Positions 10,793 through 38,603 of a DNA stretch of 64,000 bases are shown here, in pieces; the stretch's first letter is position 1; each line of letters starts with the position of its first letter. The notes below the pieces were generated by a model. It searched no databases, was not told where the DNA came from, and saw only the letters and a program-made list of their open reading frames with translations. The stretch covers positions 1,440,001 to 1,504,000 of the forward strand of contig OY760686.1 of assembly GCA_963663865.1 (NCBI GenBank). Reading direction: 5' to 3'. Origin of the DNA: Spirochaetota bacterium. GTDB lineage: Bacteria; Spirochaetota; UBA4802; UBA5550. The position numbers were made by a program, and so were the translations under genes.

Positions 10793-10799
10793 ATAATGT

Positions 10800-16941: not shown

Positions 16942-17064
16942 ATAATATATACAAATAAGATAAATAGGGCTGAACCACGGTTTTTTTTATTGACATCAAC
17001 CTCAAATCCGGGTGTCTGGTAAATCTTGAAAACGGACGGACGAGTCAGTCCGCAGGAGGAAAAA

Positions 17065-20000
17065 ATGATTAAGAGAATTATCAATACACCGCTGCCCTGC
17101 ATGGTTTACAATCCAGTAAAAACCGCAGATGCTTCTTACGCGGTTGCCGCCTATGAAGCCGGAGCTATGCCGGTTATTGATACCGAGTTTATCCAGACCG
17201 GGGATGTGCTGACGCTTGTGGATCAGCTTGCCGCACGGAACATTATATTCGGAGTCAGGCTGTTCGCTTCTGATACAGAGCTCATCGGCTCCCTGAGTGA
17301 AAGAAGGATAGACAACCTGGATCTGGTGGTGTTAGCCTACAGGAGGGCAGATGAGCTGTCAGGATTCGATTCATCTATGCCTTACCGGATATTCATTGAA
17401 ACAACTGATATAAACATTAATGATAAAATAGATTCAATCTCTCCGCAGGCGCTTATTGTCAAAGGCTTTGAAGGGGCAGGAAAGGTCTCGAAGTACACAT
17501 CGTATGTCCTTCTTCAGTGGTATCTTGACAAGACTTCATATCCGGTCGTCGTACACGGAGGAGTCGGGCAGTACACTGCATCGGGAATGTTCGCTGCGGG
17601 TGCGTCAGGCGTAGTACTCGACAGCCAGCTTTATCTTGCTGATGAGTCCCCGCTTTCAGATAATTTCAGAGACCTGCTCAGAAAGGTTGAGGAGAACAGC
17701 TCTTCGGTGATTGGAAAGGCAACGGGAATACCGTACAGGTTCTTTGCAAAGCTGGGCACAAAAATCGTAAAAGAGCTTAAGGAGAAGGAGAGCGTCCTTG
17801 CAGCTGAGGCTGACGGAAGCGCAAAGCTTTACAGGCTCATTGAAGAGCACTTAACTTCCATGAACGACTCATCGGCCAATACTCTTCAGTCGCTGTTCTA
17901 CCTCGGCCAGGACGGCGTCTTCTCAAAAAACTTTGTAAAAAACGGCACAAAGCTTAAAGATATGCTTCACGGCTTCTTCAAAACGGTCGGTGAGAACCTT
18001 GCGGACATCGAAGACTATGACCCGATCAGGGAGAACACAACTCTCGCCAGGGAACATGGAACCAGGTTCCCGATCGTACAGGGCCCTATGGGCAATATCA
18101 GCGACAGCCCTGATTTCGCGAAAAACGTATATGATTCAGGAGCACTCCCTTTCTTCGCTCTCGGAAATCTGCCGGTGAATCTCGCTGAGAATATGGTCAA
18201 AGGCGGAGCGGAAAAGAAGATATCTTTCGGCGCGGGAATGATAGGCATCGGGGCCATGAACAAGAGCTTTCAGGAACACATTGACATGGTGAAGAGGCAT
18301 AAGGCCCCGTTTGCGCTTTTCGCGGCCGGAATACCGGCTCAGGTTCTTGAGCTTGAAGCGGCAGGCACAAAGACCTATCTTCATACCCCTTCAATGCAGA
18401 TGCTTGAGAATGCGATGAAGAGCGGATGCTCCAGATTCATCTTCGAGGGCAATGAGGCTGGCGGCCACGTCGGCGGACAGACCAGCATGGTTCTGTGGGA
18501 GCTTGGAATGAACAGGCTCATGGAACTTGACGCTGAAAAGGTGAAAAACGTCAGAGCCGTATTCGGAGGCGGAATCGGTACCTCAAGAGGATCATGGTTC
18601 GTTTCAGGAATGACATCGTGTCTCGCGAGAAAGGGAGGGATGGTAGGTATACAGGTCGGTACGCTCTACCTGATGACCGAGGAGATCGTAAAGACAGGCG
18701 CCCTGAGCAAGGTGTACCACGAGCTTATACTGAAATCATGCGAGACAATAGTAATGGGAGAGACAGTGGGCCTCATGTCCAGAAGTCTTCCTTCTGTTTT
18801 CTCTCAGAAGATGATTGAGAATGAGCATCAGCGTATCCGCGACGGACTTCCTCTTGGCGACAGAAAGGTTGCCTTTGAGCATGACAATGTGGGAGCGCTT
18901 CTCGTTGGCGCGAAGGGCTACAGGCCAAAGTTCAATCCTGATGGAAAGGTTGAGCTGGTCAAGCATACTGAAAAAGACCAGTTCGATATGGGCAACTTCA
19001 TGGCCGGTGATTCAATCGCTTGCGAGGACAGGCAGATTAACGTTCCAGAGGTCAGCGATATCCTGATAAACAGGAAAAAAGGAATGTTCGCCAACCTTGA
19101 CCGCCTTGAAGTGATGACGAGCCGGGATTCAATTATACACGATGAGATTGCCGTTATCGGAATGGGCTGCGTGCTTCCCGATGCCGGAAGCCCGGAGGAG
19201 CTTTGGAAGAATATTCTCGATAAAAAATACTCTATTACTCGAATTGATGAAAAAAGGCTCTCTTCCGAATACTATTTCAGTGAGGACAGAAAGGCCGAGG
19301 GAAAAGCGTATTCAAGGATAGCCGGGCAGGTAAGCAATTTTAAATTTGATTACAGGAGATTCGGATTTACATCGGAAGAAGCCGGGGGGCTTTCAAGAAG
19401 CCAGCAGATGATCTTGGAATCGGCCGCAAGGGCTGCTGATGATGCTGGACTGTCGAAGGACAGTATTCCCGGTAACAGATCAGCTGTAGTAATAGGAACA
19501 TGCCTGTCAAGCGAGCTGATGAACGACCTGCTTCTCAAGTATAACTATCCCGAAATCAAATACTACATTGAACAGATTGAGGAGTTCAAGAGTCTCGACG
19601 CTAAGACGAAAAAATCCCTTCTGGAGGAATTAAAGAAGGCCGTTTCTCAGGGGCATACAGCTGAGTCTCCTGAAGGAGCCATGAACCACATGGAGGCGTC
19701 CAGAATCGCCGAATACCTGGGCATCAAAGGGCCGAATTACACGGTGGACGCCGCATGCGCGACGTCGCTTGCCGCTATCGACTCGGGAATCAAGGAGCTC
19801 AGGTCCGGGAAAAGCGATCTGGTTCTTGCCGGCGGTATAAACACTAATCTTTCTCCTGAATCCTTCATCGGCTTCTGCAAGATGGGAGCGCTCTCAGGCG
19901 AAGGGTCATATCCGTTCGATGAGAGATCAGGCGGCTTCGTGCTTGGTGAAGGTGCAGGCGTGTTCGTCCTCAAGAGGATGAAGGACGCTCTTAGAGACGG

Positions 20001-23000
20001 CGACAGAATACACGCTGTCATAAAGGCGACGGGCGCCAGCTCAGACGGAAAGGGGAAGGCAATTGCTGCTCCGAACCCTGCAGGCCAGGAATACGCGCTC
20101 AACCGTTGCTTTGAAAACATGCTGGATAACACCAGGATATCCGATGTTGATTTCATTGAATGTCATGGAACTTCCACTTTGATGGGCGACCTCGTTGAAA
20201 CGCAGACTGTAAAGAAGGTTTACAATACAGGAAAGGACGTTTACGTCAGTTCCGTAAAATCACAGATAGGCCACCTTCTGGGAGGGGCAGGCTCTGCCGG
20301 TATGCTGAAGCTCGTCATGGCTCTGAAGAACAAAATCCTTCCCCCAAACGGCCAGTTTAAAAAGCACTCACCCCGCCTTGAAATAGAGGGCACTCATATT
20401 AAGGTGGTAACTGACGCACTCGAATGGAAGAAAGCAGAAGGCCCGAGAATTGGAGCTATCAGTTCATTCGGTTTCGGCGGGATAAACTATCACTGCGTAG
20501 TCCAGGAGTTTACTGAAGGCTATACTAAGATCAGAAGGCGCATATTCTCGGAACCGTCATTCAACTACAACATGAACCGAGTGGTCATAACCGGTGTGGG
20601 AGTCAAGCTTCCCGGAGCTGAGAGCGTCGAAGAGATGTGGGCGGTTCTCGATTCCGGAAAGAGCGTGCTCGGGGCTATTCCGGAGGCCCGCTATCACGCT
20701 GAGGCTTTCACAACAGAAGAGGACTCTTTGTTCCGCCTCGCTCCCGTAAAAGCGGGTGTCATCACGGGAGATGTTGACAGCAAATCCTACCGCGTCCCTC
20801 CGGCTGCTGCAAGGGTCATTGACAGAGGACAGTTCTACGCTCTTGAGGCGGCGGGAAGGGCAATGAAGCAGTGCGGTCTTGACAAAAAGCTCGATAAGGG
20901 AAACAAAATCGCAGCAGTGTTCGGCGCCCTGACCGGCGAGATGCTGATGGAGAATGTTATACGAATCAGAATTCCGCTGCTGCAGGAGGCAATCCATTCT
21001 GTTAAGGGGCTCAGCGATTCTCTGAAAAACTCCATCTCGGAAAAGATTGCCGAGAGCCTGAAGGAGAGATACGCGGCGATAAACGAAGACACCGTTCCGG
21101 GCATGCTCAGCAACATCATAAGCGGAAGAGTCGCAAACTTCTACGGACTTAACGGAGCCAACTTCATAGTTGATGCTGGAAGCATGTCATCCGCTGTAGC
21201 GTGCAATCTCGCCATGAAGGGGCTGCAGTCAGGGGAATACGACTTCGCTCTTGCCGGCGGTGTTGAGTCCAACATTTCGGCCCCGACTATGAGGGCCTTC
21301 CAGAGAATGGGCATTATCGGCGAAAATGGCGGCTCAATCTTTGACGGGAAATCAACAGGAACAAGCCTGTCCGAGGGGGCTGTGGTTTTCGCGCTCACTA
21401 CTCTTGAAAAGGCCCTTGAGAACAACATGCCTGTTCTCGGGGAGATCAACGGCATAGCCATTGACAGCTCGGCGGGCGCCCGCTCGGGAGAGCTTTCAAC
21501 GGAAGCTCTTGTACGTTCAATGAATGACTCATTGAACAATTCTCCTCTGAAAAAGGAAGACATATCATATATTGACATATATGGGGCTTCAAGAGCGGAA
21601 TCAGATAAAAACGAAATAGCTGCCGTCGAGAGGGTTTTCGGAGCTAAGGCGGCTGTCGGAAGCTCAAAGCCGGTATTCGGCTATCTGAGATCAGCAAGCC
21701 CGGCTTTCGCAATCGCCAAGCTCATCGGCGCGAGGAAGTTCGGGAAAACACCGGGTTTCAATGCTATTAAACCCGGCGCTGCGCTGCTCAAGGCATCGTC
21801 AGCTAAAATTGAAGGCGCAATGTCGATAGGCAAACATGATTACGCTGCCGCAAATATATTCGGAATCGGCGGCAATCACGGATTTGTTGTTACGGGCGCT
21901 GTCCCTGACTGGGCTATGAAAAAGACAAGACAGTTTCCGGCCGGCGCTGTTGTGCCGAGGCCTGTCCCTCTTGCCGCTCAGCCGTCAGTAAGGGGAGGCG
22001 GAGATAAAATAACGGCGCTTCTATCCGGCCAGGGCGCTCAGCGTTCGGGCATGATGAAGGAACTCTATGAGTCTGTTTCAATTATCAGAGATACCCTTGA
22101 CCGTGGAAACGAGATATTCAGGAAGGAGCGTGGACAAAACCTCCTCGATATCATGTTCGGTGATGATCCCTCAATTAACTCGACTGAGATTACTCAACCC
22201 GCGGTATTCCTTTCGTCAGCGGCACTCTATGATTACGCCGCTTCGTCAGGGTTCTCGCCTGATTACTTCATCGGCCACAGCCTCGGCGAAATCACGGCTC
22301 TTTACTGCTCGGGAATTCTCGCTTTTGAGGATGCCATGAGGCTTGTAATAAAGCGTTCTGAGCTTATGAAGGCTGACGCCGAAAGAACAGCCGGAAGGAT
22401 TATGGTTCTGTTCAAGGGATGGGAGGAGTCTCAGGGGCTGATAGATGAATCCGGAATAAAGAACGTGTTTGTGGCCAACAAAAACAGCGAGGTCCAGACG
22501 GCTGTTTCAGGAGCGGCGGGGGATATAGACTCGTTCATGTCATATCTCAAGCAGAAGAACGTCACTTTTAAAGCACTGAACCTGTCCGGAGCGTTCCATA
22601 CTCCTTTCTATGCTCAGGCTTCGGACTCTATAAGGTTGTTCCTTAAAGATGTAAAATTCAAATCCGCTGATTACACAAAGGTAATATCAAATGTGACAGG
22701 ACTCCCTTATCCGCAAAACGAGGATGGGGTAAAGGACCTTGTAGCGAGACAGATCGTTTCGCCGGTGAACTTCATTCAGTCGGTCGGTTACGCTTTTAAC
22801 AATGGAAGCGGGCACTTCGTTGAGTTCGGCCCCGGCAGGCTTCTTGTAAACCTTCTTAAGAATATCACCCTCAATTACAGGACTGTGGAATCCGCGGTTG
22901 ATGTTAAAGCAGGCGAGCTTGCCTCACTCCGTTCATTAGATTCACACCTGAAGTCTCTGACAGGCGGGGCGGCATCTTCTGCGGCGTCGATTGCATCAGA

Positions 23001-26000
23001 CAGCAGCGACCCGGAGTTCAAGAGATTCCTTGAGGAAAAGAAAGACGAGATTAACACCTTGCTTGCCAACGAGTTTAATAAGTACAAAATGGAAGATGCC
23101 GGCAACGCGGTGAAGCGCTTCGGCTTCTACACCGGGAAAATTGTTGTTTCCGGCGCGGCAATAGGACTTCCGGGCTCCGCCAACAGGGTATTTGCCGAGA
23201 ATAACTTTGACCGTATCATCGCAGGCGAGAACTTTATTGATTCGCTCACCGCACAAGATAAGGCAGAGATGCTTAATAAAAACATCGTCAGGGTATATAA
23301 GGATCCTGCCGGCAACGCTAAGTTTATTCAGATCAGCAAAGAGGAAGAGGTTATTCAGCTTGCGGGAAAGCTCGGCTATTTCAGCCTCGCCAATGACTAC
23401 GGGATCGACTTTGAGCACGACTACCCCGAGGCGCTTGCCATGGCAGCGGGAATAGAGGCTCTGAAAGACGCGGGCATCCCGCTGGTACAGGGATTCAAAA
23501 AAGCCTCCAATGGCGCCATGATTCCAGGAGCCTATGAACTGCCGCAGGAAATGCAGGACCGCACGGGGGTAATATGCACCTCTGTATTTGCCGGACTTGA
23601 GACGTTTTCGAAGGAGCTCAGGGCTTACTATGAGCACAGGTTCCTCACTGAGCCATATGAAGAGTTCAAGAAGATGTACTACTTCATGATGGAGAAGATA
23701 TCCGATACCGGAGTCAAAGACAGGCTTACCGAATGGTTCTCGTCGCTCAGAAAGGCCGGAAGCGAAAAGGCTTACAACTTCGACAGAACCATTCTGTTCA
23801 AGATTATTAACCTCGCGCCAGCCCACTTTGCCCAGCACATTAAAGCAAAGGGGCCGAACACGCATACAAGCGCAGCCTGCGCTTCTACAACACAGGCGAT
23901 ATGTATCGCTGAAGACTGGATAAGGACCGGACGCTGCGACAGGGTTATTCTTATTGGCGGAGAAGCGGCGAATGGGGAAGGACAGGGACAGTGGATACAG
24001 TCCGGATTTTTAGCCCTCGGGGCCGCAACGGTTAAGAAGACAGTGCAGGAAGCGGCAAAGCCCTTTGACGAAGACCGCAATGGAACGATTGTCGGAAGCG
24101 GAGCAGTGGCCCTAATCATTGAGAAGGAAGAATGCGCCGTCAGACGCGGTCAAAAAGGACAGGCCGAGATTCTCGGTACATATTTCGGCAACAGCGCCTT
24201 CCACGCGACCAGAATTGACGTTGAACATGTCGCCAGAGAAATGAAGAATGCTGTAATTCAGATTGAGAAGCGTCATGGCCTTAACCGTGACGATTACGCA
24301 AGGCACATGGTTTTCATGTCGCATGAGACGTATACTCCGGCAAGAGGCGGAAGCGCGTCGGCAGAGGTAATGGCCCTGAGAGAAGCCTATCCTCAGCATT
24401 ACAGAGAAATAACAATAACCAACACAAAGGGATTTACGGGACATACCCTGGGCGCGGGAATAGAGGACGCCATACTCATCAAGGCGCTTTTAAAAGGGAA
24501 AGTGCCTCCTATTGCGAACCTTGTCAAGATTCCGCAGGAGTTTGCTGACCTTAAGTTCAGCAAGGGAGAACCGGGAGATTACAGATACGGTATGCACTTT
24601 GGTGCCGGCTTCGGTTCTCACTTTGCCTTTGCCCTGATTAAAAAAGGCCAGGAGAACTGTTTCGAGAATAACCCTGAATATACCAGGTGGTTGAAGGAGA
24701 TATCCGGAAGCGACAATCCCGAGCTTGTTGTAATGAACGGGGCCCTCTGCATCAAGTCTGCCGGGAAGCCGCTGATGCCGCGCAGGGCACCCGAGGTAAA
24801 AGCTCCGGCGTCTCAGGCTGTACAGACAGCTGTGACAGCGCCATCTGCCCCGGCAGGTGGAGCCGTTCACGCTGTGAAGGAGATCATTTCCGAGTACACC
24901 GGCTATTCTGAGGACATGCTTGATGAGAACCTCGACCTTGAAGGCGACCTCGGCATCGACACAGTTAAGCAGGTCGAGATATTCGGCGCGGTGTCTCAGA
25001 AGTTCGGTTTTGATGTGCCTGAAGACCTTAAACTCGGAGAGCTCAATACGATAGCGAAGCTCGCTGCCTACATCGCGAAGTCCGTTCCCGGACTGGCTGC
25101 TCCGTCAGCTTCGGCGCTGGTTCAGGCAGCAGCCCCCGCAGCAGCGCCTGCATCAGGCGGAGCTGTTCAAGCGGTGAAGGAGATCATTTCCGAGTACACC
25201 GGCTACTCTGAGGACATGCTTGATGAGAACCTCGACCTTGAAGGCGATCTTGGCATCGACACAGTGAAGCAGGTCGAGATATTCGGAGTGGTGTCTCAGA
25301 AGTTCGGCTTTGATGTGCCAGAAGACCTTAAACTCGGAGAGCTCAATACGATAGCGAAGCTTGCTGCATATATCGCGCAGGCCGTTCCCGGACTCGCTGT
25401 TGCTCCGTCACCATCGGCGCCGGTTCAGGCAGCAGCCCCCGCGGCAGCGCCTGCATCAGGCGGAGCTGTTCAAGCGGTGAAGGAGATTATTTCTGAGTAC
25501 ACCGGCTACGAGGTGGAGATGCTGGATGAGACACTTGACCTTGAAGGCGACCTCGGCATCGACACAGTAAAGCAGGTCGAGATATTCGGCGCGGTGTCAC
25601 AGAAGTTCGGATTTGACGTGCCGGAAGACTTGAAGTTAGGCGAGCTCAATACGATAGCAAAGCTTGCTGCATATATAGCGCAGGCTGTTCCCGGACTTGC
25701 TGTTGCTCCGTCAGTTTCGGCGCCGGTACAGGCAGCAGCGCCTGCGTCAGGCGGAGCTGTTCAAGCGGTGAAGGAGATTATATCGGAGTACACCGGCTAT
25801 GAGGTGGAAATGCTGGATGAGACACTTGACCTTGAAGGCGATCTCGGCATCGACACAGTCAAGCAGGTCGAGATATTCGGCGCGGTGTCACAGAAGTTCG
25901 GCTTTGATGTTCCTGAAGATCTTAAACTCGGCGAGCTCAATACGATAGCGAAGCTTGCTGCATATATAGCGCAGGCCGTTCCCGGACTCGCTGTTGCTCC

Positions 26001-29000
26001 GTCAGCATCGGCGCAGGTTCAGGCAGCAGCCCCCGCGGTAGCGCCTGCATCGGGTGGAGCTGCTCAAGCGGTGAAGGAGATTATATCGGAGTATACCGGC
26101 TATGAGGTGGAGATGCTGGATGAGACCCTTGACCTTGAAGGCGACCTCGGCATCGACACAGTTAAGCAGGTCGAAATATTCGGCGCGGTGTCTCAGAAGT
26201 TCGGCTTTGACGTGCCGGAAGACCTTAAACTCGGCGAGCTCAATACGATAGCGAAGCTCGCTGCATACATCGCGCAGGCCGTTCCCGGACTCGCTTCTGC
26301 TCCGTCAGCTTCAGCGCCGGTTCAGGCAGCAGCCCCCGCTGCAGCAGCACCTGCATCAGGCGGAGCGGCTCAAGCGGTGAAGGAGATTATATCGGAGTAC
26401 ACCGGCTATGAGGTGGAGATGCTGGATGAGACCCTTGACCTTGAAGGCGACCTCGGCATCGACACGGTCAAGCAGGTCGAGATATTCGGCGCGGTGTCAC
26501 AGAAGTTCGGCTTTGATGTTCCTGAAGACCTTAAACTCGGCGAGCTCAATACTATAGCGAAGCTTGCGGCTTACATCGCGAAAGAGGTTCCGGGCGCCGG
26601 TGCAGCAGTTCAGCCATCTGCGGCAGAACAGCCCGCTGTAGCGGTTGCAACTGAGGCTGGCGGATCGGGAATAAAGCGCTTTGAGGTCGGAATAGCTGAG
26701 GCGGCACCTGTTTCACAGAAGGTGAAAGACCTCAAAGGGAAGACCTATCTTGTAACGCTTGATAAATCCGGATTTTCAGACCGGGTAACTAAAAGGCTCA
26801 AAGCAATGGGCGCAAAGGTTGTAACTCTTGGAGTTAAAGGCGCCGACTACAATTCTATGGGCAGCTTCGAGAAGCTTGAGTCTGACATCAGGGCCATTGC
26901 ATCAGATGAAAGCCTGTACGGAGTTATTCACTGCGCACCTGTTGCCTGGGCAGGCAAGCCTGCTGATGAAGAGTCGATAAATGTTTCAGTCAAAAGTCTG
27001 TTCCTTATAATAAAGGGGCTCTACGGGCTGCTGAACAGAAAGGGAGGAATCATTGCAGCTCCCGCATTTGACTCTGTTGTGTTCCCGTATTCAGGAGAAG
27101 AGGCATCCATCTCGCCGGTTTCAGGAGGAGTGGCAGGAATGCTGAAGACCGCTTCAAAGGAGATGAAGGACACGGCCTGCAAGGTCGTTGACTTCAGCTT
27201 CAGGAAAGCCGGCGAGAGCTTTGACATAGCTGCCGATATCTTCATGAACGAAATCTTTTCCGGTGACAGGACAGTTGAAACCGGATACAGGGACGGCGTT
27301 AGATATAAAATATCACTGAAGGAAGCTGCGGCAGTGAAGGGCGATTTCGTACTGAAAGAAGGCGATACCGTCATAGTCACAGGCGGTGCCGGAGGTATTA
27401 CCTTTGAAATGCTCAAGGATATCGCCTCAAGAATTAATGTGAAATTCGTAATACTCGGAAGAAGCCGTATCGACGGTATTGAGCCTGACTTTATGAGGCT
27501 GGAAGCTGATGAGAGGTATATCCTGGGCAAGCTCAAGGACAGAATGCAGGGAGCCAAACCGCTTGAGCTGAAAAAAGAGGCCGGCAGAATAATCCGTGCC
27601 AGATCGGCGGCAGACAATATTGAGACGCTCAGAAAAACCGGATGCGAGGTTGAGTACCATGCCGCGGATGTCGCTGACGCTGTCTCTGTCGAAAAAGCTC
27701 TGAAGGGAATCAAAAATGCCGCTGGAATTATTCACGCGGCTGGAATTGAGGAAAGCCAGTTCATAGAAAAAAAGGAATTCTCCCAGTTCAATCGGGTATT
27801 TGATGTAAAGGTTTACGGTGCCCTTAATATTCTGAAGGCTGTGCCGAAATACAGGTTCCTGGCAACCTTCTCTTCGGTAGCTGCCAGATTCGGGAACGAG
27901 GGGCAGATTGATTACAGTTCAGCAAACGATCTTCTTTCGAAGATAGTTCTGAGAGAGAACCAGCTTAACAGCGGTAAAATATGCAAGATCATTGACTGGA
28001 CAGCCTGGGATGGCGCGGGTATGGCGACAAACGAAACCGTAATGAAGGTCCTGAAGGAGAGAGGCATGAAATTCCTTCCGTTGAAGGAAGGTGTGCGCTT
28101 CTTCATGGATGAGCTGTCAGATCCGAGAAGCATTGAAACCGCGGTAATGGGCCTCGATCTGGAATTCGACCCTGACCGTATTCTTCCGGGATCAGGTTCG
28201 CCGTCGTGCGGAAGATATCCTTTCCTGGGTACGCCAATATCCTCTGACGAAAAAAAAGCCGTCTATTCGCGTGTTCTCGATATAAACACGGACCTCTTCC
28301 TGCTTAATCACTCAAGGGAAGGAGTACCTCTGTTCCTTGGCGCTACCGGGGTTGAATCACTCGCAGAAGCATCTTCAAGGGTTATGCCGGAAGGACGCAG
28401 ACTTATCAGCCTGAAGGACTTCACGATACCCTATGGAATCAAAATTCTGCAGGGACGTCCAAAGGAGATTATGATAGAGGCCGAGGCCCTCGGAGATGAG
28501 GCTGCCTGCCGCATAGTGTCCCAGTTTAAAAACAAGGCCGGCATTGCTATGGGTGACATGACAGTTCATTACAACGGCACATGTGTTTTCAGCGGCGCCG
28601 AAGCGAAGGCAAAGAAGATAAGTCTGCCGGAATTCAAGCCGGTAACTGTTGAAGGAGATTTCCAGGAGCTTATATATCATCCTGAAAGGCTCTTTATGGA
28701 TGGCGTGTTCAGAAGTATTCAGGGAATTCTTTCTTTCGACGGCAAAAAGCTTGTTACGAAGGTGAGAAACCCTCTCAGCGGAGAATTCTTCAGGGGATGC
28801 GTTGAGCCCGAGTTTGTCACAGATCCGGTGCTCGTTGACGCAATGTTCCAGACCGGAGGTGTCGTTGAATTTCTGACTTCCGGGGTCATCATTCTTCCGT
28901 CGTCAATTCGCGTGATGAATTTTTACGCGGGTACTGAGGCGATGAAGGATTACCTGTGCATTACAGAGAAAAAACATGACGGTGAAGAGACGAACACCTT

Positions 29001-29124
29001 CGATCTCTGGCTCACAGACGAAGCGGGAAATGTCTTCGTTGAGGTTCTCGATTTTCAGATGATCAAGATTAAGGGAACATCAGGAGACACAAATCTAAAA
29101 AATAGAATTAGGACGTCGTTCTGA
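17065..29124 (+). CDS. Giant type I fatty-acid/polyketide synthase: pseudoER-ER-KS-pseudoKS-AT-KS-6xACP-KR-DH
   Basis: Two FabK/nitronate-monooxygenase-like barrels (the second has GNEAGGH). KS1 has DAAC/ECHGT/IGHLL. KS2 is degenerate (DAGS/DIYGA/FGYL). AT has GQGAQ/GHSLG/GAFH. KS3 has SAAC/SHETYT/TGHTLG. Six ACP repeats follow, then KR (TGGAGGI...HAAG...DYSSAN) and DH (NHSREG...DAMFQ). ATG 17065 follows GGAGG. Confidence 0.92.
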   Translation: MIKRIINTPLPCMVYNPVKTADASYAVAAYEAGAMPVIDTEFIQTGDVLTLVDQLAARNIIFGVRLFASDTELIGSLSERRIDNLDLVVLAYRRADELSGFDSSMPYRIFIETTDININDKIDSISPQALIVKGFEGAGKVSKYTSYVLLQWYLDKTSYPVVVHGGVGQYTASGMFAAGASGVVLDSQLYLADESPLSDNFRDLLRKVEENSSSVIGKATGIPYRFFAKLGTKIVKELKEKESVLAAEADGSAKLYRLIEEHLTSMNDSSANTLQSLFYLGQDGVFSKNFVKNGTKLKDMLHGFFKTVGENLADIEDYDPIRENTTLAREHGTRFPIVQGPMGNISDSPDFAKNVYDSGALPFFALGNLPVNLAENMVKGGAEKKISFGAGMIGIGAMNKSFQEHIDMVKRHKAPFALFAAGIPAQVLELEAAGTKTYLHTPSMQMLENAMKSGCSRFIFEGNEAGGHVGGQTSMVLWELGMNRLMELDAEKVKNVRAVFGGGIGTSRGSWFVSGMTSCLARKGGMVGIQVGTLYLMTEEIVKTGALSKVYHELILKSCETIVMGETVGLMSRSLPSVFSQKMIENEHQRIRDGLPLGDRKVAFEHDNVGALLVGAKGYRPKFNPDGKVELVKHTEKDQFDMGNFMAGDSIACEDRQINVPEVSDILINRKKGMFANLDRLEVMTSRDSIIHDEIAVIGMGCVLPDAGSPEELWKNILDKKYSITRIDEKRLSSEYYFSEDRKAEGKAYSRIAGQVSNFKFDYRRFGFTSEEAGGLSRSQQMILESAARAADDAGLSKDSIPGNRSAVVIGTCLSSELMNDLLLKYNYPEIKYYIEQIEEFKSLDAKTKKSLLEELKKAVSQGHTAESPEGAMNHMEASRIAEYLGIKGPNYTVDAACATSLAAIDSGIKELRSGKSDLVLAGGINTNLSPESFIGFCKMGALSGEGSYPFDERSGGFVLGEGAGVFVLKRMKDALRDGDRIHAVIKATGASSDGKGKAIAAPNPAGQEYALNRCFENMLDNTRISDVDFIECHGTSTLMGDLVETQTVKKVYNTGKDVYVSSVKSQIGHLLGGAGSAGMLKLVMALKNKILPPNGQFKKHSPRLEIEGTHIKVVTDALEWKKAEGPRIGAISSFGFGGINYHCVVQEFTEGYTKIRRRIFSEPSFNYNMNRVVITGVGVKLPGAESVEEMWAVLDSGKSVLGAIPEARYHAEAFTTEEDSLFRLAPVKAGVITGDVDSKSYRVPPAAARVIDRGQFYALEAAGRAMKQCGLDKKLDKGNKIAAVFGALTGEMLMENVIRIRIPLLQEAIHSVKGLSDSLKNSISEKIAESLKERYAAINEDTVPGMLSNIISGRVANFYGLNGANFIVDAGSMSSAVACNLAMKGLQSGEYDFALAGGVESNISAPTMRAFQRMGIIGENGGSIFDGKSTGTSLSEGAVVFALTTLEKALENNMPVLGEINGIAIDSSAGARSGELSTEALVRSMNDSLNNSPLKKEDISYIDIYGASRAESDKNEIAAVERVFGAKAAVGSSKPVFGYLRSASPAFAIAKLIGARKFGKTPGFNAIKPGAALLKASSAKIEGAMSIGKHDYAAANIFGIGGNHGFVVTGAVPDWAMKKTRQFPAGAVVPRPVPLAAQPSVRGGGDKITALLSGQGAQRSGMMKELYESVSIIRDTLDRGNEIFRKERGQNLLDIMFGDDPSINSTEITQPAVFLSSAALYDYAASSGFSPDYFIGHSLGEITALYCSGILAFEDAMRLVIKRSELMKADAERTAGRIMVLFKGWEESQGLIDESGIKNVFVANKNSEVQTAVSGAAGDIDSFMSYLKQKNVTFKALNLSGAFHTPFYAQASDSIRLFLKDVKFKSADYTKVISNVTGLPYPQNEDGVKDLVARQIVSPVNFIQSVGYAFNNGSGHFVEFGPGRLLVNLLKNITLNYRTVESAVDVKAGELASLRSLDSHLKSLTGGAASSAASIASDSSDPEFKRFLEEKKDEINTLLANEFNKYKMEDAGNAVKRFGFYTGKIVVSGAAIGLPGSANRVFAENNFDRIIAGENFIDSLTAQDKAEMLNKNIVRVYKDPAGNAKFIQISKEEEVIQLAGKLGYFSLANDYGIDFEHDYPEALAMAAGIEALKDAGIPLVQGFKKASNGAMIPGAYELPQEMQDRTGVICTSVFAGLETFSKELRAYYEHRFLTEPYEEFKKMYYFMMEKISDTGVKDRLTEWFSSLRKAGSEKAYNFDRTILFKIINLAPAHFAQHIKAKGPNTHTSAACASTTQAICIAEDWIRTGRCDRVILIGGEAANGEGQGQWIQSGFLALGAATVKKTVQEAAKPFDEDRNGTIVGSGAVALIIEKEECAVRRGQKGQAEILGTYFGNSAFHATRIDVEHVAREMKNAVIQIEKRHGLNRDDYARHMVFMSHETYTPARGGSASAEVMALREAYPQHYREITITNTKGFTGHTLGAGIEDAILIKALLKGKVPPIANLVKIPQEFADLKFSKGEPGDYRYGMHFGAGFGSHFAFALIKKGQENCFENNPEYTRWLKEISGSDNPELVVMNGALCIKSAGKPLMPRRAPEVKAPASQAVQTAVTAPSAPAGGAVHAVKEIISEYTGYSEDMLDENLDLEGDLGIDTVKQVEIFGAVSQKFGFDVPEDLKLGELNTIAKLAAYIAKSVPGLAAPSASALVQAAAPAAAPASGGAVQAVKEIISEYTGYSEDMLDENLDLEGDLGIDTVKQVEIFGVVSQKFGFDVPEDLKLGELNTIAKLAAYIAQAVPGLAVAPSPSAPVQAAAPAAAPASGGAVQAVKEIISEYTGYEVEMLDETLDLEGDLGIDTVKQVEIFGAVSQKFGFDVPEDLKLGELNTIAKLAAYIAQAVPGLAVAPSVSAPVQAAAPASGGAVQAVKEIISEYTGYEVEMLDETLDLEGDLGIDTVKQVEIFGAVSQKFGFDVPEDLKLGELNTIAKLAAYIAQAVPGLAVAPSASAQVQAAAPAVAPASGGAAQAVKEIISEYTGYEVEMLDETLDLEGDLGIDTVKQVEIFGAVSQKFGFDVPEDLKLGELNTIAKLAAYIAQAVPGLASAPSASAPVQAAAPAAAAPASGGAAQAVKEIISEYTGYEVEMLDETLDLEGDLGIDTVKQVEIFGAVSQKFGFDVPEDLKLGELNTIAKLAAYIAKEVPGAGAAVQPSAAEQPAVAVATEAGGSGIKRFEVGIAEAAPVSQKVKDLKGKTYLVTLDKSGFSDRVTKRLKAMGAKVVTLGVKGADYNSMGSFEKLESDIRAIASDESLYGVIHCAPVAWAGKPADEESINVSVKSLFLIIKGLYGLLNRKGGIIAAPAFDSVVFPYSGEEASISPVSGGVAGMLKTASKEMKDTACKVVDFSFRKAGESFDIAADIFMNEIFSGDRTVETGYRDGVRYKISLKEAAAVKGDFVLKEGDTVIVTGGAGGITFEMLKDIASRINVKFVILGRSRIDGIEPDFMRLEADERYILGKLKDRMQGAKPLELKKEAGRIIRARSAADNIETLRKTGCEVEYHAADVADAVSVEKALKGIKNAAGIIHAAGIEESQFIEKKEFSQFNRVFDVKVYGALNILKAVPKYRFLATFSSVAARFGNEGQIDYSSANDLLSKIVLRENQLNSGKICKIIDWTAWDGAGMATNETVMKVLKERGMKFLPLKEGVRFFMDELSDPRSIETAVMGLDLEFDPDRILPGSGSPSCGRYPFLGTPISSDEKKAVYSRVLDINTDLFLLNHSREGVPLFLGATGVESLAEASSRVMPEGRRLISLKDFTIPYGIKILQGRPKEIMIEAEALGDEAACRIVSQFKNKAGIAMGDMTVHYNGTCVFSGAEAKAKKISLPEFKPVTVEGDFQELIYHPERLFMDGVFRSIQGILSFDGKKLVTKVRNPLSGEFFRGCVEPEFVTDPVLVDAMFQTGGVVEFLTSGVIILPSSIRVMNFYAGTEAMKDYLCITEKKHDGEETNTFDLWLTDEAGNVFVEVLDFQMIKIKGTSGDTNLKNRIRTSF
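24871..26583 (+). repeat. Six tandem ~300-bp ACP-encoding repeats with Ala/Pro-rich linkers
   Basis: Units start at about 24871, 25171, 25474, 25765, 26068 and 26374 (periods 300, 303, 291, 303, 306 nt) and encode near-identical protein. Confidence 0.97.
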
Positions 29125-29196: not shown

Positions 29197-29925
29197 ATGA
29201 ATCACGTCAGACTTGAAAGCGTCGACTCAACCAACAGCTATATAAGAAGAACGCCGTCTCTTCTGGCTGAAAAGTGCGTGCTCGTGTCAGCGCGAGAACA
29301 GACATCCGGCCGGGGCAGGGATGAACGCTCCTGGTATTCAAGGCCGGGGCTGGACCTGACTTTTTCGATGTCCTTCAGAACGGACTGCCGGACATCCGAT
29401 GTTCCGGCCTTCACCGCGGCCGCCGGGGTTTCACTATACAGGGCGGTAAGACCGCTTGTCGGGGAAGGCCTTTTTTTGAAGTGGCCGAATGATCTCTATT
29501 TCAAAGGCCGAAAGCTCTCGGGCATACTGTGCGAGTTTGTACAGGAAGGGGATATTCAGGCCGTTATCGTCGGCATTGGAATCAATGTCAGGGCGGGCGC
29601 TTTCTGTCAGGCGATTGCCACGGAAGCTGTTTCGCTTGAAGAGGCCGCAGAACGGAGCTTTGAGCTTGATTCGCTGCTCTATCTAATAAGCAGCCGTTTG
29701 AGAGATGAGCTTGTTGCTTTTTCGGGTCAGCTCGATAAAAACACCTGCGAAGACTGGATTGAATTTTCAGACCGGGACCGCGTGGTGATGACTGAGATGA
29801 AAGGGGTTTTGCGAAGCGGATACATTGCCGCCCTCAACCCTGACGCGTCGCTGAGAATACAGGACGCTGAGACAGGACAAATAAACAATTACAGAGGCGA
29901 GGTATTTTATGCCGGCGAAAGGTAA
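29197..29925 (+). CDS. birA: Biotin--protein ligase (no N-terminal HTH)
   Basis: Motifs VDSTN, QTSGRGR, KWPND, KLSGIL and GIGIN; GGAGG RBS. Confidence 0.93.
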   Translation: MNHVRLESVDSTNSYIRRTPSLLAEKCVLVSAREQTSGRGRDERSWYSRPGLDLTFSMSFRTDCRTSDVPAFTAAAGVSLYRAVRPLVGEGLFLKWPNDLYFKGRKLSGILCEFVQEGDIQAVIVGIGINVRAGAFCQAIATEAVSLEEAAERSFELDSLLYLISSRLRDELVAFSGQLDKNTCEDWIEFSDRDRVVMTEMKGVLRSGYIAALNPDASLRIQDAETGQINNYRGEVFYAGER

Positions 29926-32900
29926 ACATACTGGCGAAGCGATGAAAGGGGCGGTCCTTCCCGCGCTCACTGATACGGAAAAGCAGGATTTCAATAAATC
30001 ACTGGAATACCTGAAGAAGCTGAACGTATCTGCTGACGGGAGGAGTTCAACTGAGCCCGCGCGGAAGGAAGGTAAGCTGAAGAAGGTCCTTATTGCCAAC
30101 AGGGGGGAAATAGCCAAAAGGTTTTTTCTGGCGCTCCATGAGGAGAATATTCCTTCAGTGGCAGTAATCACAGACGCCGACAGGGGTCAGAGCTGGTATG
30201 AATTCGCCGACGAGGAGCTGTATATCGGCGCCAATGAGAACTACACAGGTATCAACATAATTATTGCTGCTGCGGTCCTCTCGGGCGCAAATGCGATATA
30301 TGCGGGTTACGGCTTCCTGTCTGAAAATCACGGCTTCGTAAAGCGGATCAGGCAGATTTCAGAATGGCTCGGCACTGAATTGATATTTATGGGACCGCGC
30401 TATGATGTAATGGAGGTCATGGGTGATAAGATCAGTGCCCGTGAGGTAGCTCGTAAAAACGGGGTACCTCTCTTCGAAAGCTCCGACGCTTTAAGCGACA
30501 GCGATATAGACCACGTTAAAAAAGAAGCCGCAAGAATCGGCTATCCGGTAATCATTAAACTCTCAGCGGGAGGCGGGGGCAAGGGAATGTACCCTGTGTT
30601 CTCTGAGGGCGAAATTGAGTCGGCTGTCCAGTCGACATGCCGGATAGGACGCGAGCTGTATAATGACAGCTCATTCTATATGGAAAAGTTTATACAGCGG
30701 CCTGTTCACATAGAGGTGCAGGTTTTCAACGGCAGCGCTATTGGAATCAGAAAATGTGCGGTTCAGAGACGTAATCAGAAGATAATCGAAGAGAGCGGCC
30801 ATACATTTCTGGAAGATCATCAGTTTATGTCGTTTCTCTCATCAGCTGAAAGGCTTGCGATTGCTTCAGGTTATTCGGACGGTTGCGGCGCCGGTACGGT
30901 TGAGTTTCTTATAGACAGTGAGAACGGAAGCTTCGGTTTCATGGAGATGAATACAAGGCTTCAGGTCGAGTATGCTGTGACTGACCAGTCACTCGGCATA
31001 GACCTTGTCAAGTGGCAGATTATGTTCTACGACGGACGGGGTAATGAAATTGCTAATCCCCAGATGATGAAGTACAAGACCCTTGACCGCTATCATTCAA
31101 TCGAGTGCCGAATATACGCTGAAGACCCGGAGAATGACTATCTGCCTTCGCCGGGTTCAATTGTTGAGGTAGATCTTCCCACCTTCAACGGAATCAGGTG
31201 CGACTTCGGATTTACAAAGGGCGATAACATTCTGCCGATGTACGATCCTATGATAGGAAAGCTGATCGCACACGGCAGCACGAGGCGTGAAGCGATAATC
31301 AGGCTGGAAAGGGCCCTGCAGGAGTTCTACGTTAAGGGAATCAAGACGAACACCAACCAGTTGCTGCAGATAGTAAGGCATCCTGAATTTCAGGACGGAG
31401 GTTACTCAAACAAGCTGCTTGACGATAATCCGGAGCTTCAGTTTAAGGCCGAAGCTGAAAAAAACAATGCCTGCTCTTCGGCTGATACCATTGAACCGGT
31501 AATATTCGGGGCATTCTGCGAATACATTTCGGCTCTGCACAGGGCCGCCCAGGATTACGCGGTCATAGTCTCGCTTGAGGGGGCCGGCAACGCTCCCGCG
31601 GTTACTCTGCCTCCAGCAGCATTTACTGTTCAGTACAGGGGGGGCAGCAGCAGGGTTGATTTTCTGCAGACAGAAATTGACAGCTTTATCGTCTCTCTTA
31701 ACGGTGTTAATCACGGCAGGGTGACGCTAAGCTACTTCAATGACAGGGACGATGATTTTATTGTTCAGTACGGCACTGGCTCAAAAAGGATAAGGTGCGA
31801 AAGACAGTCCGACATGCTTGTGGTCAAGCTACGTGACTCGCAGAACAAAGCTAATTACCACAGGATGCTTATTGTCCCCGAGGGGCAGGGCGCAGCGGCC
31901 AATGAAGGACTTGTGAAGTCTCCATTTCAGGGGACATTTGTCTCGCTTGGAAGTGCCGGCCTTGAGGTTGGCGCAGATGTTAAGGCTGGAGACCCGCTGA
32001 TTGTTCTTTCGTCGATGAAGATGGAAACTGTGGTTAAAGCTCCGGTTGACGGCACAATTGAGTATTTGATTGAAGACGGTGACGAGTCCAGGCTCGTATT
32101 GTCAAAAACACCTGACGGCAGAATAATCGGCAGGAGTATTCAGGAAGGCGAAGTCCTGGTGCGCATCAAAACCGAAGATGTTGATGACTCTGAAACCTGC
32201 TCCGGAGAAAAGAAAGTCAATACAGGCACTACTGCACTCGATTTGCTGAGAAGCGGTGTGCCGGTGGAAAACATAGTTTCAGATATCGAAAAACACTTCG
32301 ACGATATTCTTGAGATGTTTCTTGCTTCAGTCAAAGGCTTTATCAGCGACAGCGTTCTTATCGATTCAATGATTGAAGTCCTTGAGAAGATTGATCATGT
32401 CGCGTGGGGTAGTATAATAAACGAAAAGAGGGCGGAAGGTGTAAATGATATAGTACTTCACTATACTAATATACGAAAAATATTCTCACCGGTCATTTCT
32501 GAAAACGGATTTTCCTATCAGGATGAACTTGACAGGTATTCGAGAGACTGGAACGAGCCGGGAGTGAAGTTTCCCGGAGAGTTTACTTCGCTTATTAACG
32601 AGCTTCTTGCCAATTTCGGAATATCCTCAGCTAAGCCTTCAAACGTAATGGAAGAGATATACAGAGCTCACTTCAATCTTCTAATGCGGCTTTCTTATGA
32701 TTACTGTGTCAGAAACTGGAAGCGGATCGGTCCGCATTTTAATGTAGTTACCACGCTTCTGCCTTCGAAGGACAAGACTCTTCTTACAATGAAGCGTCTT
32801 CTGCTTCACACCCAGACGGAATCGGACGACTCGGCATACAAAAAGATCAGGAGCTATCTTATTGAAAAGTATCCTCATTGCTACGCCGAGTTTTCAACCG

Positions 32901-35755: not shown

Positions 35756-36385
35756 ATGGAGAAAAACATGACACTAAATACAGCTTATAACAGATACATT
35801 GATGTTCTCAATTCATTTCACAGCTGGCGGCTACGAAGCGGGGCATTGACAGGAATGTTCCTTGCCGCCTGCGCTGCGCTTTTCACAGGCATAATGGCAC
35901 AGGCCGCCATATATCTTCCGTGGACGCCGGTCCCTGTTACCGGCCATACGGTAGCCGTGTTCGCGGGCGCTGCTCTTCTCGGCAGGTGGGGCGGAGCAGC
36001 CCAGCTGATGTACATCGCGGGAGGCGCCGCTGGCCTTAACTGGTTCGCCGGCCAAAACGGGGGACTCCCGGCCCTCTGCGGGCCAACAGCCGGCTACCTT
36101 GCCGGATACGCTCTTGCTGCATGGGTTCTCGGCGAGGTTTTGCAGTCCTCAAAAACTCCAAGAAGGTTTGTCAGACTCCAGCTTTTAATGGCGGCGCTTA
36201 ACTTTGGGGTTGTGTACCCTGTGGGGCTGGCGGGGCTGTACATGTGGACAACCTCTGTGAAAGGAAGCGCGCCGGGAATTTTTGAACTTCTGAACATGGG
36301 ATTATTTCCTTTTATCCCGGGGGATATTGTCAAAATTGGAATCACATCAACCCTGATATACCAGCTGCTTCCCAAAAGAAGGTGA
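35756..36385 (+). CDS. bioY: Biotin transporter substrate-binding component
   Basis: Motifs PWTPVPVTG, GPTAGYLAGY and FIPGDIVK; hydrophobic; adjacent to birA and the carboxylase. Confidence 0.9.
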   Translation: MEKNMTLNTAYNRYIDVLNSFHSWRLRSGALTGMFLAACAALFTGIMAQAAIYLPWTPVPVTGHTVAVFAGAALLGRWGGAAQLMYIAGGAAGLNWFAGQNGGLPALCGPTAGYLAGYALAAWVLGEVLQSSKTPRRFVRLQLLMAALNFGVVYPVGLAGLYMWTTSVKGSAPGIFELLNMGLFPFIPGDIVKIGITSTLIYQLLPKRR

Positions 36386-38395: not shown

Positions 38396-38603
38396 GCCAA
38401 ATGATTTTAGTAATATAAATTGTTACACCTTCAAGGTTCTGCGTAAAGAATGCTGTGTGGCCGGGAAAGACCGGTTCAGGTCCGGTATCATGAATAAAAT
38501 TGTCTTGATATATTTGTACCGTAATGAGTTGATAATTCAGGGATTTTTGTCCGGCAGGGAAGTATGGACGGCCCCATAAATTAGCGGATCAGGTGTTTTG
38601 AAT

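What the first reader, a model, noticed from the sequence alone, without database searches (positions are those of the whole stretch)
24871..26583. All six carrier domains have Thr instead of the phosphopantetheine-accepting Ser
Seen: every ACP reads DLEGDLGID-T-VKQVE, with Thr codons ACA at 24961, 25261, 25564, 25855 and 26158 and ACG at 26464. Established: ACPs, including the tandem ACPs of Pfa synthases (LGIDSIKRVE type), are modified on an invariant Ser at this position. I find no Ser-type ACP elsewhere in the protein or the window. The rest of the synthase, its malonyl-CoA supply genes and a PPTase all look intact. Inference: either phosphopantetheine is attached to threonine (a non-canonical modification), or the domains carry another prosthetic group or role.
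Basis: partly seen in the sequence, partly recalled or inferred. Interest (0 to 1): 0.92.

Follow-up and report, generated by a model that had tools for sequence, protein, structure and literature searches.

The report
Threonine-type carrier domains in fatty-acid megasynthase
All six carrier domains of a giant fatty-acid synthase have threonine where textbooks require the cofactor-accepting serine, and the same swap is kept in hundreds of related enzymes from many bacterial and archaeal phyla, so it looks like an unrecognised, working variant of a universal protein modification.

Summary
Six tandem PP-binding domains (24871-26592) in a 4032-aa ORF read DLGIDTVKQVE, with Thr codons at the stated positions. 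The Thr aligns with the phosphopantetheine (Ppant) Ser of solved ACPs and opens helix II of a confident ACP-fold model.

It is not decay. Among 263 homologues, 1175 carrier domains have T 875, S 290 and other 10. T-type and S-type separate on a KS tree with 3 changes. The motif occurs in at least 120 genome stretches from more than 10 phyla, with all four Thr codons.

The synthase holds the genome's only ketosynthases, and no FabA/FabZ was found. BirA, a single-chain acetyl-CoA carboxylase and BioY lie beside it.

In two archaeal genomes, the only carrier domains detected are Thr-type. They lie in the same ORF as the only PPTase domain.

Best reading (about 0.7): Thr is the Ppant acceptor, served by Sfp-type PPTases. 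There is no chemical proof. Ten full-text searches found no report of this. E. coli ACP S36T is described as unmodifiable.

The parts
17026..29124 (+). Megasynthase ORF, 4032 aa from TTG. The database record P0003 starts at the ATG at 17065 (4019 aa). Domain order: ER(NMO-like)-KS-KS(no Cys, CLF-like)-AT-KS-6xACP-KR-DH.
   Evidence: TIGR02813 PfaA scores 979.7 bits, just under its cut-off of 1010.1.
17065..18900 (+). N-terminal enoyl-reductase-like region (NMO family, two stretches; best stretch residues 412-587). The outer boundaries are approximate.
   Evidence: PF03060, E 5.4e-19.
19141..20517 (+). KS1, with the Cys motif at 19747-19767 and His motifs at 20161-20283.
20572..21414 (+). Second KS-like domain (N-terminal half). 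The active-site position reads DAGSMSS with no Cys, so it is chain-length-factor-like.
22021..22863 (+). Acyltransferase domain, with GHSLG at 22273-22290.
   Evidence: (fabD-like, 4.2e-59).
23746..24453 (+). Third KS domain (the part that was matched), with Cys at 23869-23889 and His motifs at 24316-24453.
24871..25089 (+). ACP1; Thr codon ACA at 24961.
25171..25389 (+). ACP2; Thr codon ACA at 25261.
25474..25692 (+). ACP3; Thr codon ACA at 25564.
25765..25983 (+). ACP4; Thr codon ACA at 25855.
26068..26286 (+). ACP5; Thr codon ACA at 26158.
26374..26592 (+). ACP6; Thr codon ACG at 26464.
27367..28011 (+). Ketoreductase domain.
   Evidence: PF08659, 4.2e-31.
28219..29070 (+). PKS-type dehydratase domain (PKS_DH_N plus PS-DH).
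   Evidence: (LNHSREGVP at 28303-28329).
29197..29925 (+). Biotin-protein ligase (BirA-like).
   Evidence: PF03099; TIGR00121, 126.7 bits, cut-off 83.1.
29909..35734 (+). Single-chain biotin carboxylase-BCCP-carboxyltransferase, 1941 aa. Probable acetyl-CoA carboxylase supplying malonyl-CoA.
35756..36385 (+). BioY biotin transporter component.
   Evidence: PF02632, 8.6e-29.
5555..6292 (+). Sfp/EntD-type 4'-phosphopantetheinyl transferase, 245 aa. Candidate modifier of the Thr-ACPs. It is one of only two PPTases in the genome.

Best explanation
The six domains are working acyl carrier domains of a self-contained iterative type I fatty-acid/polyketide synthase related to PfaA. They belong to a large, old, phylum-spanning clade of tandem-ACP synthases in which the universal Ppant-accepting Ser has been replaced by Thr. 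The site motif is DLG[IV]D-T-VKQ[VA]E, against DLGID-S-IKRVE in canonical Pfa ACPs.

The most likely mechanism is as follows. The hydroxyl of this Thr, at the N-terminus of helix II, attacks the beta-phosphate of CoA in an Sfp-type PPTase. Here that PPTase is the product of 5555-6292. In relatives it is encoded next to the synthase, and in several archaeal forms it is fused to its C-terminus. The reaction gives an O-(4'-phosphopantetheinyl)threonine arm, which then carries malonyl and acyl thioesters between the KS, AT, KR, DH and ER domains as usual.

In this genome the enzyme is probably the only de novo fatty-acid synthase. The adjacent single-chain carboxylase, BirA and BioY would supply it.

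Shown here: the Thr, its position in the fold, its conservation, the clade structure and the gene contexts. Inferred: that Thr is modified, which PPTase does it, and what the product is.
For: 1. Site identity. The Thr aligns with the Ppant Ser of solved ACPs. In an AF2 model (pLDDT 87.9) it is residue 32, the first residue of helix 32-46. The model superposes on ACPs at TM 0.75-0.83.

2. Conservation. 1339 homologues have E<=1e-3, and 2141 representative clusters have E<=1e-10. In the 263 proteins I could read, 1175 carrier domains carry T 875, S 290 and other 10. By protein: 196 all-T, 54 all-S, 6 with both T and S. A hydroxyl is therefore kept in 1165 of 1175 domains.

3. Selection on the residue. 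All four Thr codons occur at the site in 120 loci: ACC 155, ACG 120, ACT 17, ACA 15. Window repeats 3 and 4 are 92% identical in DNA and 100% identical in protein.

4. Clade structure. On a KS1 tree of 171 rows (140 T, 26 S, 5 mixed), the T/S label needs 3 changes, against a shuffled mean of 24-29 with 0 of 500 shuffles as low. An all-Ser protein (P0172) and single Ser domains (P0012, P0117) sit inside T neighbourhoods. T and S therefore interchange at this site.

5. PPTase linkage.
- Pfam PF01648 is fused in P0030, P0080, P0098, P0103, P0115 and P0117. Five of the six have only Thr at sites with the DLG[IV]D-x-VKQ motif; P0117 has one Ser among five Thr. The HMM census adds two degenerate carrier-like matches in each of P0098 and P0115 (site residues P, K and E, D), which are not Ser.
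- The window PPTase matches four of these domains at E 7e-15 to 2e-7.
- In two archaeal genomes, whole-genome six-frame PF00550 scans find only Thr-type carriers. G062 has 2 and G063 has 3. All lie in the same ORF as the only PF01648 match.
- In the complete archaeal chromosome G061, the array reads S, T, S beside a fused PPTase.
- All 12 relatives with an ACP match carry the Thr motif. 10 of those 12 have a homologue of the window PPTase, against 7 of 48 relatives without an ACP match.
- In G002 the PPTase homologue lies directly upstream of the synthase.
- The 11 PPTases aligned in A1, six of which lie on the synthase's own contig, keep the catalytic D-x-E and KEA..K motifs (motif meaning recalled).

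6. Need for a thiol arm. All partner domains keep their catalytic motifs. The three KS domains of this ORF are the only PF00109 matches in a 98%-complete genome, and no FabA/FabZ was found.

7. Coupled change. The residue after the site is V in 865 of 874 T sites, but I in 255 of 289 S sites. The +3 residue is Q in 874 of 874 T sites, against R in 233 of 289 S sites. This fits a conserved docking volume (inference).
Against: - There is no direct chemical evidence that the Thr is modified.
- Passages of PMC3340395 describe the one experimental precedent I could read, E. coli ACP S36T. They say it cannot be modified with 4'-PP and is non-functional. Thr is therefore not a generic PPTase substrate.
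- I found no sequence feature that would explain Thr acceptance in the PPTases linked to Thr-ACP synthases. Their motifs look canonical.
- This genome has an AcpP-like Ser carrier and an AcpS, so a trans-acting Ser-ACP is not excluded here.
- Most relatives lack FabA/FabZ whether or not they have the synthase (only 20 of 60 relatives have a match). The absence of FAS II therefore does not by itself prove that the synthase is essential.
- The completeness of archaeal genomes G062 and G063 is not given, and PF00550 could miss divergent carriers.
- The counts of T against S come from lists ranked by similarity to a T-type query, and kin are not independent.
Confidence: 0.7

Rival explanations
1. 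The Thr domains are never modified. They act as structural or docking pseudo-ACPs, and a free-standing Ser-type ACP (the AcpP-like gene at genome position 1365619, activated by AcpS) carries the intermediates in trans.
For: An AcpP-like 77-aa ORF with GIDSIDMVEL lies between rpmF and rnc, and a 123-aa AcpS is present. E. coli ACP S36T is reported as unmodifiable (passages).
Against: - In G062 and G063 no Ser carrier was detected in the whole genome, yet the synthase carries a PPTase domain.
- The whole PPTase and partner recognition motif around the site is invariant (A2 invariant columns).
- The site holds only hydroxyl residues in 1165 of 1175 domains.
- The copy number varies from 2 to 8, as in working Pfa ACP arrays.
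- Ser variants occur at the same site inside the clade.
Confidence: 0.12
2. The Thr carries a different prosthetic group, such as the phosphoribosyl-dephospho-CoA of CitD/MdcC-type carriers. Alternatively, it is acylated directly as an oxyester without any arm.
For: Only the departure from the Ser rule. Nothing here shows which group is attached.
Against: - No CitX or CitG family match was found in the genome.
- The transferases fused to, or next to, these synthases are Sfp-type PPTases with canonical motifs.
- The KS, AT, KR and DH domains are of the kind that act on Ppant thioesters (established knowledge).
- A direct oxyester would lack the swinging arm (inference).
Confidence: 0.06
3. Lineage-specific decay, a pseudogene or a sequencing artefact.
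For: None found.
Against: - The 12-kb frame is open.
- The motif is identical in 196 all-Thr homologues and in at least 120 genome stretches from many phyla.
- Synonymous codons vary at the site.
Confidence: 0.01

Closest known systems
Tandem ACP domains of PfaA-type PUFA synthases (motif DLGIDSIKRVE)
   Same: Tandem arrays of 2-10 carrier domains separated by Ala/Pro-rich linkers, lying between KS-AT and KR-DH. The DLGID core and the four-helix fold are the same. The window protein scores 979.7 bits on TIGR02813. S-type homologues with exactly this motif appear in the same searches.
   Different: The acceptor is Thr, not Ser, with coupled +1 Ile->Val and +3 Arg->Gln changes. The T-type forms a separate part of the KS tree. 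ER, KS-CLF and a third KS are fused into one chain. The TIGR02813 score is below its cut-off of 1010.1.
Shulse and Allen 2011 'Type S' (Desulfobacterium autotrophicum) and 'Type R' secondary lipid synthases (PMC3098273, passages read)
   Same: These are uncharacterised pfaA-like synthases with 3-6 tandem ACPs. Type R is followed by a PPTase gene and sometimes an acetyl-CoA carboxylase gene. It is spread over Acidobacteria, Elusimicrobia and Chloroflexi. Type S was proposed to be the core FAS of an organism lacking fabA/fabZ. My hits come from the same taxa and show the same contexts.
   Different: The words 'threonine' and 'serine' do not occur in that paper's main text.
E. coli ACP S36T mutant
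   Same: Thr sits at the Ppant site of an ACP.
   Different: This engineered mutant is described as not modifiable by 4'-PP and non-functional (PMC3340395, passages). The natural Thr-ACPs here are conserved under selection and linked to Sfp-type PPTases, not AcpS-type ones.
Sfp/EntD-type (group II) PPTases
   Same: ORF 5555-6292 matches PF01648 and PF17837 above their cut-offs. It aligns to EntD (7bcz, E 1.3e-5) and weakly to Sfp (E 0.06). It keeps the GIDxE and KEAxxK motifs.
   Different: It is divergent: only 2 free-standing homologues were found by the word-indexed search. Its presumed substrates carry Thr. No residue that would explain this was identified.
CitD/MdcC carriers of citrate lyase and malonate decarboxylase
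   Same: These are carrier proteins with a non-Ppant, CoA-derived arm on a hydroxyl residue (recalled).
   Different: They use Ser and the CitX/CitG enzymes. Neither family was found in this genome. They have a different fold family and do not form tandem arrays.

Membership tests
PP-binding carrier domain (Pfam PF00550) | Profile match above the gathering score | tested here: met
   Six stretches, 182.7 bits in all. A single domain scores 38.6 bits against a cut-off of 20.8.
PP-binding carrier domain (Pfam PF00550) | Four-helix ACP fold with the acceptor at the N-terminus of helix II | tested here: met
   AF2 model with pLDDT 87.9. Helices at 2-11, 32-46, 56-59 and 62-72, with the Thr at residue 32. 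Foldseek TM 0.75-0.83 to solved ACPs.
PP-binding carrier domain (Pfam PF00550) | Ser as the phosphopantetheine acceptor | tested here: not met
   Thr in all six domains. It aligns with the Ser of PigH, AcpM and AcpP-type ACPs.
PP-binding carrier domain (Pfam PF00550) | The domain is actually phosphopantetheinylated | not testable with these tools
   This needs mass spectrometry of the protein.
PfaA-type PUFA synthase (TIGR02813) | Score over the curated cut-off | tested here: not met
   979.7 bits against 1010.1.
PfaA-type PUFA synthase (TIGR02813) | Tandem ACP array between AT and KR-DH | tested here: met
   and the positions.
PfaA-type PUFA synthase (TIGR02813) | Separate PfaB/PfaC/PfaD partners and a PUFA product | tested here: not met
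   ER, KS-CLF and a further KS are fused into the same ORF. No other KS is present in the genome. The product is unknown.
Shulse-Allen Type S / Type R secondary lipid synthases | pfaA-like gene with 3-6 tandem ACPs; linked PPTase and sometimes ACC; taxa Desulfobacteraceae, Acidobacteria, Chloroflexi, Elusimicrobia | tested here: inconclusive
   Architecture, contexts and taxa agree. The paper's gene list is in a supplement I could not open, so no gene-by-gene check was made.
Sfp-type PPTase (for ORF 5555-6292) | PF01648 plus the N-terminal 4PPT_N domain, with Mg-binding D-x-E and catalytic KE motifs | tested here: met
   42.0 bits (cut-off 25) and 37.0 bits (cut-off 27). GIDAE and IKEAWLK are present and invariant in alignment A1. 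The motif meaning is recalled.

The most novel reading that the evidence does not exclude
O-phosphopantetheinyl-threonine is the native cofactor linkage of a whole, ancient clade of self-contained type I fatty-acid synthases. The clade is found in more than ten bacterial phyla and in Heimdallarchaeota and other archaea. Its members are served by co-adapted Sfp-type PPTases. This would be a second carrier-protein chemistry, possibly orthogonal to AcpS/Ser systems and chemically more stable. The coupled Ser-Ile to Thr-Val 'methyl swap' would mark the adapted docking surface.
Probability: 0.6. Interest if true: 0.9.

Novelty: new variant of a known kind. Interest (0 to 1): 0.82.

Why it matters
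- **A textbook rule would need an exception.** The serine acceptor of phosphopantetheine is treated as invariant in fatty-acid, polyketide and non-ribosomal peptide biochemistry. Motif rules such as PROSITE's attachment-site pattern (recalled) and "inactive ACP" calls in genome mining rest on it. A phylum-spanning clade that uses Thr would mean those rules mislabel hundreds of working synthases.
- **A possible orthogonal pair.** E. coli ACP S36T is reported as dead. A naturally orthogonal carrier/PPTase pair would therefore be useful for engineering.
- **Basic lipid metabolism may be involved.** Here, and probably in several Desulfobacteraceae, the enzyme may be the only fatty-acid synthase.
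- **The archaeal members add to the lipid-divide question.** Versions with a fused PPTase give some archaea a complete, self-priming fatty-acid machine. This bears on how archaea make fatty acids without ACP.
- **The test is short.** One co-expression and one mass spectrum would decide it.

Tried and rejected
- **Complex prediction.** I submitted the window PPTase (alignment A1), CoA, Mg and the ACP domain (alignment A2). The result was "no answer": the score was 0.85, but one unrelated control scored 0.72. It is not used as evidence either way.
- **Sequencing runs.** No RNA holder was listed, so nothing can be said on expression.
- **PPTase homologue searches.** The "near" length search gave only the protein itself plus 2 weak hits. 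The "longer" search gave none, and it covers only 430-2000 aa. I could not build a broad PPTase family this way.
- **A PPTase residue that explains Thr acceptance.** I looked for one by aligning 11 PPTases from relatives whose genomes carry Thr-type synthases, six of them on the synthase's own contig, and by PDB alignments. None was seen, and the motifs look canonical.
- **Literature.**
  - Motif strings returned only unrelated hits.
  - Topic searches found no paper on Thr-type ACPs.
  - Phrases for threonine phosphopantetheinylation returned 0 papers.
  - The Minicystis paper mentions threonine only for kinases.
  - These searches cover open-access full text and bioRxiv only. Subscription papers and all supplements were not searched.
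  - The Shulse and Allen supplementary gene table could bear on whether their Types R and S are these genes.
- **Decay, pseudogene or artefact** was considered and rejected.
- **CitX/CitG-type prosthetic group** was considered and found unsupported.
- **"No FAS II, so the synthase is essential"** was considered as an argument and weakened. Only 20 of 60 relatives have a FabA/FabZ-family match. Many relatives seem to have neither system.

Full report
**Observation**

ORF 17026-29124 (+) encodes 4032 aa. Translation of 24871-26583 gives six near-identical repeats, each with DLGIDTVKQVE. The Thr codons are ACA at 24961, 25261, 25564, 25855 and 26158, and ACG at 26464.

Pfam finds six PP-binding stretches, three KS, one AT, one KR, a PKS-type DH and an N-terminal NMO-like enoyl reductase. 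The domain order is ER-KS-KS(no Cys)-AT-KS-6xACP-KR-DH. The expected catalytic motifs of KS1, KS3, AT, KR and DH are present (the motif definitions are recalled knowledge).

In PDB alignments the Thr falls on the Ppant Ser of PigH, AcpM and AcpP-type ACPs. An AlphaFold2 model of one domain, built on a 20-row alignment, has pLDDT 87.9. The Thr is residue 32, the first residue of helix 32-46. The model superposes on solved ACPs at TM 0.75-0.83.

**Not decay: a conserved clade**

A search with the ACP region found 1339 homologues at E<=1e-3. Nearly all of the best 120 carry 3-8 tandem DLG[IV]DTVKQ[VA]E sites. An exhaustive profile-free search of cluster representatives with one ACP domain gave 4754 hits at E<=1e-3, 2141 at E<=1e-10 and 370 at E<=1e-30.

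I located every carrier domain in the 263 proteins returned by the two searches and read the acceptor column.
- By domain (1175 in all): T 875, S 290, other or gap 10.
- By protein: 196 all-T, 54 all-S (almost all the canonical Pfa motif DSIKRVE), 6 with both T and S, 6 T plus other, 1 S plus other.

These lists are ranked by similarity to a T-type query, so the T share is inflated. The point is that T-type is common and uniform.

On a FastTree of KS1 domains (171 rows: 140 T, 26 S, 5 mixed), the T/S label needs only 3 changes. The shuffled mean is 24-29, and 0 of 500 shuffles are as low. Three long S rows are poorly placed.

Ser does reappear inside T neighbourhoods. P0172 is all-Ser (DSVKVAE) among T rows, and P0012 and P0117 each have one DSVKQVE domain among Thr ones.

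The 80 rows printed name the following:
- Bacteria: Elusimicrobia, Acidobacteriota, Chloroflexota, Actinomycetota (including isolates of Mycolicibacterium and Amycolatopsis), Desulfobacterota, Myxococcota, Gemmatimonadetes, Rhodothermales and Bdellovibrionales.
- Archaea: Heimdallarchaeota and another archaeon.

At the site, all four Thr codons occur in these loci: ACC 155, ACG 120, ACT 17, ACA 15. The amino acid is therefore what is kept.

The neighbouring residues co-vary with the acceptor. The +1 residue is V in 865 of 874 T sites, but I in 255 of 289 S sites. The +3 residue is Q in 874 of 874 T sites, against R in 233 of 289 S sites. Ser-Ile and Thr-Val have the same total atoms. This fits a docking surface of conserved volume. 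That is my inference, and the data are not phylogenetically independent.

**Genomic context**

The window lies in a 3.16-Mb single-contig genome that is 98% complete. Directly downstream of the synthase lie three genes:
- a BirA-like biotin ligase (29197-29925)
- a 1941-aa single-chain biotin carboxylase-BCCP-carboxyltransferase (29909-35734)
- BioY (35756-36385)

The three KS domains of the synthase are the only PF00109 matches in the genome. No FabA/FabZ-family match exists. So there is no type II FAS, and this enzyme is the only candidate for de novo fatty-acid synthesis.

This argument is weaker than it looks. Only 20 of 60 relatives have a FabA/FabZ match, and many appear to have neither system.

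The genome has three Ser-type carriers elsewhere:
- an AcpP-like 77-aa ORF between rpmF and rnc
- a carrier inside an acyl-ligase/ACP/acyltransferase fusion
- an 83-aa carrier beside an asparagine-synthase-like gene

It has two PPTases: a 123-aa AcpS and the Sfp/EntD-type ORF 5555-6292.

**Why Thr is probably the Ppant acceptor**

1. A hydroxyl residue is kept at the site in 1165 of 1175 domains, and T and S interchange there.

2. Six homologues carry a fused PPTase domain by Pfam: P0030, P0080, P0098, P0103, P0115 and P0117. Five have only Thr at sites with the carrier motif, and P0117 has one Ser among five Thr. In P0098 and P0115 the census also picks up two degenerate carrier-like matches each, none of them Ser. 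The window PPTase matches four of these domains at E 7e-15 to 2e-7. That is better than its best free-standing hit, E 4e-6.

3. Three archaeal genomes act as natural closed systems.
   - In G062 the whole-genome six-frame PF00550 scan finds 2 carrier domains, both Thr. They lie in the 3376-aa ORF that also holds the only PF01648 matches.
   - In G063 it finds 3 carrier domains, all Thr. They lie in the 3501-aa ORF that also holds the only PF01648 match.
   - In the complete chromosome G061 the array reads S, T, S, next to a fused PPTase.
   - The caveat is that completeness of G062 and G063 is not given.

4. Among 60 relatives, 12 have an ACP match, and all 12 carry the Thr motif.
   - There are two subfamilies: ...KQVE (ER-fused, about 4000 aa) and ...KQAE (about 3000 aa).
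   - 10 of these 12 have a homologue of the window PPTase, against 7 of the 48 without an ACP match. Kin are not independent.
   - In G002 the PPTase homologue lies just upstream of the synthase. In G008, G010, G035, G040 and G056 a PPTase lies a few kb from the ...KQAE synthase on the same contig.

5. These PPTases keep the canonical Sfp-type motifs.

6. No CitX or CitG, the enzymes of the other known carrier prosthetic group, is present.

**Against**

- Nothing here shows the modification chemically.
- E. coli ACP S36T is described as unable to receive 4'-PP and as non-functional (PMC3340395, passages). Thr acceptance would therefore need an adapted PPTase.
- I could not point to any adapting residue.

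**Comparison with what is known**

The closest family is PfaA of PUFA synthases (TIGR02813, 979.7 bits, just below the 1010.1 cut-off). It has the same tandem-ACP logic but a Ser acceptor.

Shulse and Allen (PMC3098273; passages read) described uncharacterised Type R and Type S synthases.
- Type R is KS-MAT-CLF-ACP3-6-KR followed by a PPTase, sometimes with an ACC gene. It occurs in Acidobacteria, Elusimicrobia and Chloroflexi.
- Type S occurs in Desulfobacterium autotrophicum. The authors proposed it as the core FAS of an organism lacking fabA/fabZ.

Architectures, contexts and taxa match what I see. The gene family is therefore known, but its main text contains neither "threonine" nor "serine". 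I could not open its supplement to confirm gene identity.

Ten full-text searches found no report of a Thr-type ACP or of threonine phosphopantetheinylation. Subscription literature was not covered.

**Verdict**

- Most likely (about 0.7), these are functional carrier domains that use an O-phosphopantetheinyl-threonine linkage made by Sfp-type PPTases. They sit in a synthase that is probably this organism's fatty-acid synthase.
- I rate it a new variant of a known kind. It is highly interesting because it breaks a rule treated as universal, it is widespread, and it can be settled by one co-expression and mass-spectrometry experiment.

Noticed in passing
window 29909-35734 (+), with 29197-29925 and 35756-36385: A 1941-aa single-chain biotin carboxylase-BCCP-carboxyltransferase (eukaryote-like layout) lies between a BirA-like ligase and BioY, directly after the synthase. 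Together they look like a compact 'fatty-acid island'.
   Followed up: partly
whole genome G000: No ketosynthase was found outside the megasynthase, and no FabA/FabZ-family gene. The genome lacks a type II FAS. Only 20 of 60 relatives have a FabA/FabZ match.
   Followed up: partly
L008 = G000:C1:787192-790383: An ORF of about 790-840 aa fuses an acyl-AMP ligase, a Ser-type carrier domain (KIDSLGLVDL) and a PlsC-like acyltransferase. It may be the route from free fatty acid to lipid.
   Followed up: no
L028/L136 (G061), L065/L135 (G062), L077/L137 (G063): Heimdallarchaeota and another archaeon encode 2700-3500-aa synthases with 2-3 carrier domains and a fused C-terminal PPTase. These are the only carrier and PPTase domains detected in those genomes. 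G061 also has a second PPTase match with the same score about 2.7 kb downstream, in a 208-aa frame. This could be a duplicated segment.
   Followed up: partly
relatives G008 and G010: Two different Thr-type synthase subfamilies (...KQVE and ...KQAE) co-exist in the same genome.
   Followed up: no
window 9488-12891 (-): An ETF-alpha with an N-terminal ferredoxin domain, an ETF-beta and an ETF-QO-like flavoprotein form a FixABC-like set on the minus strand.
   Followed up: no
window 38598-39662 (+), 43768-45426 (-), 45635-47041 (-): Three ORFs of 354, 552 and 468 aa have no Pfam match at E<=0.001.
   Followed up: no
window 25474-25983 (ACP3 and ACP4): The two repeats are 100% identical in protein but only 92% identical in DNA over 79 codons. 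This shows purifying selection on each copy, not recent gene conversion alone.
   Followed up: partly
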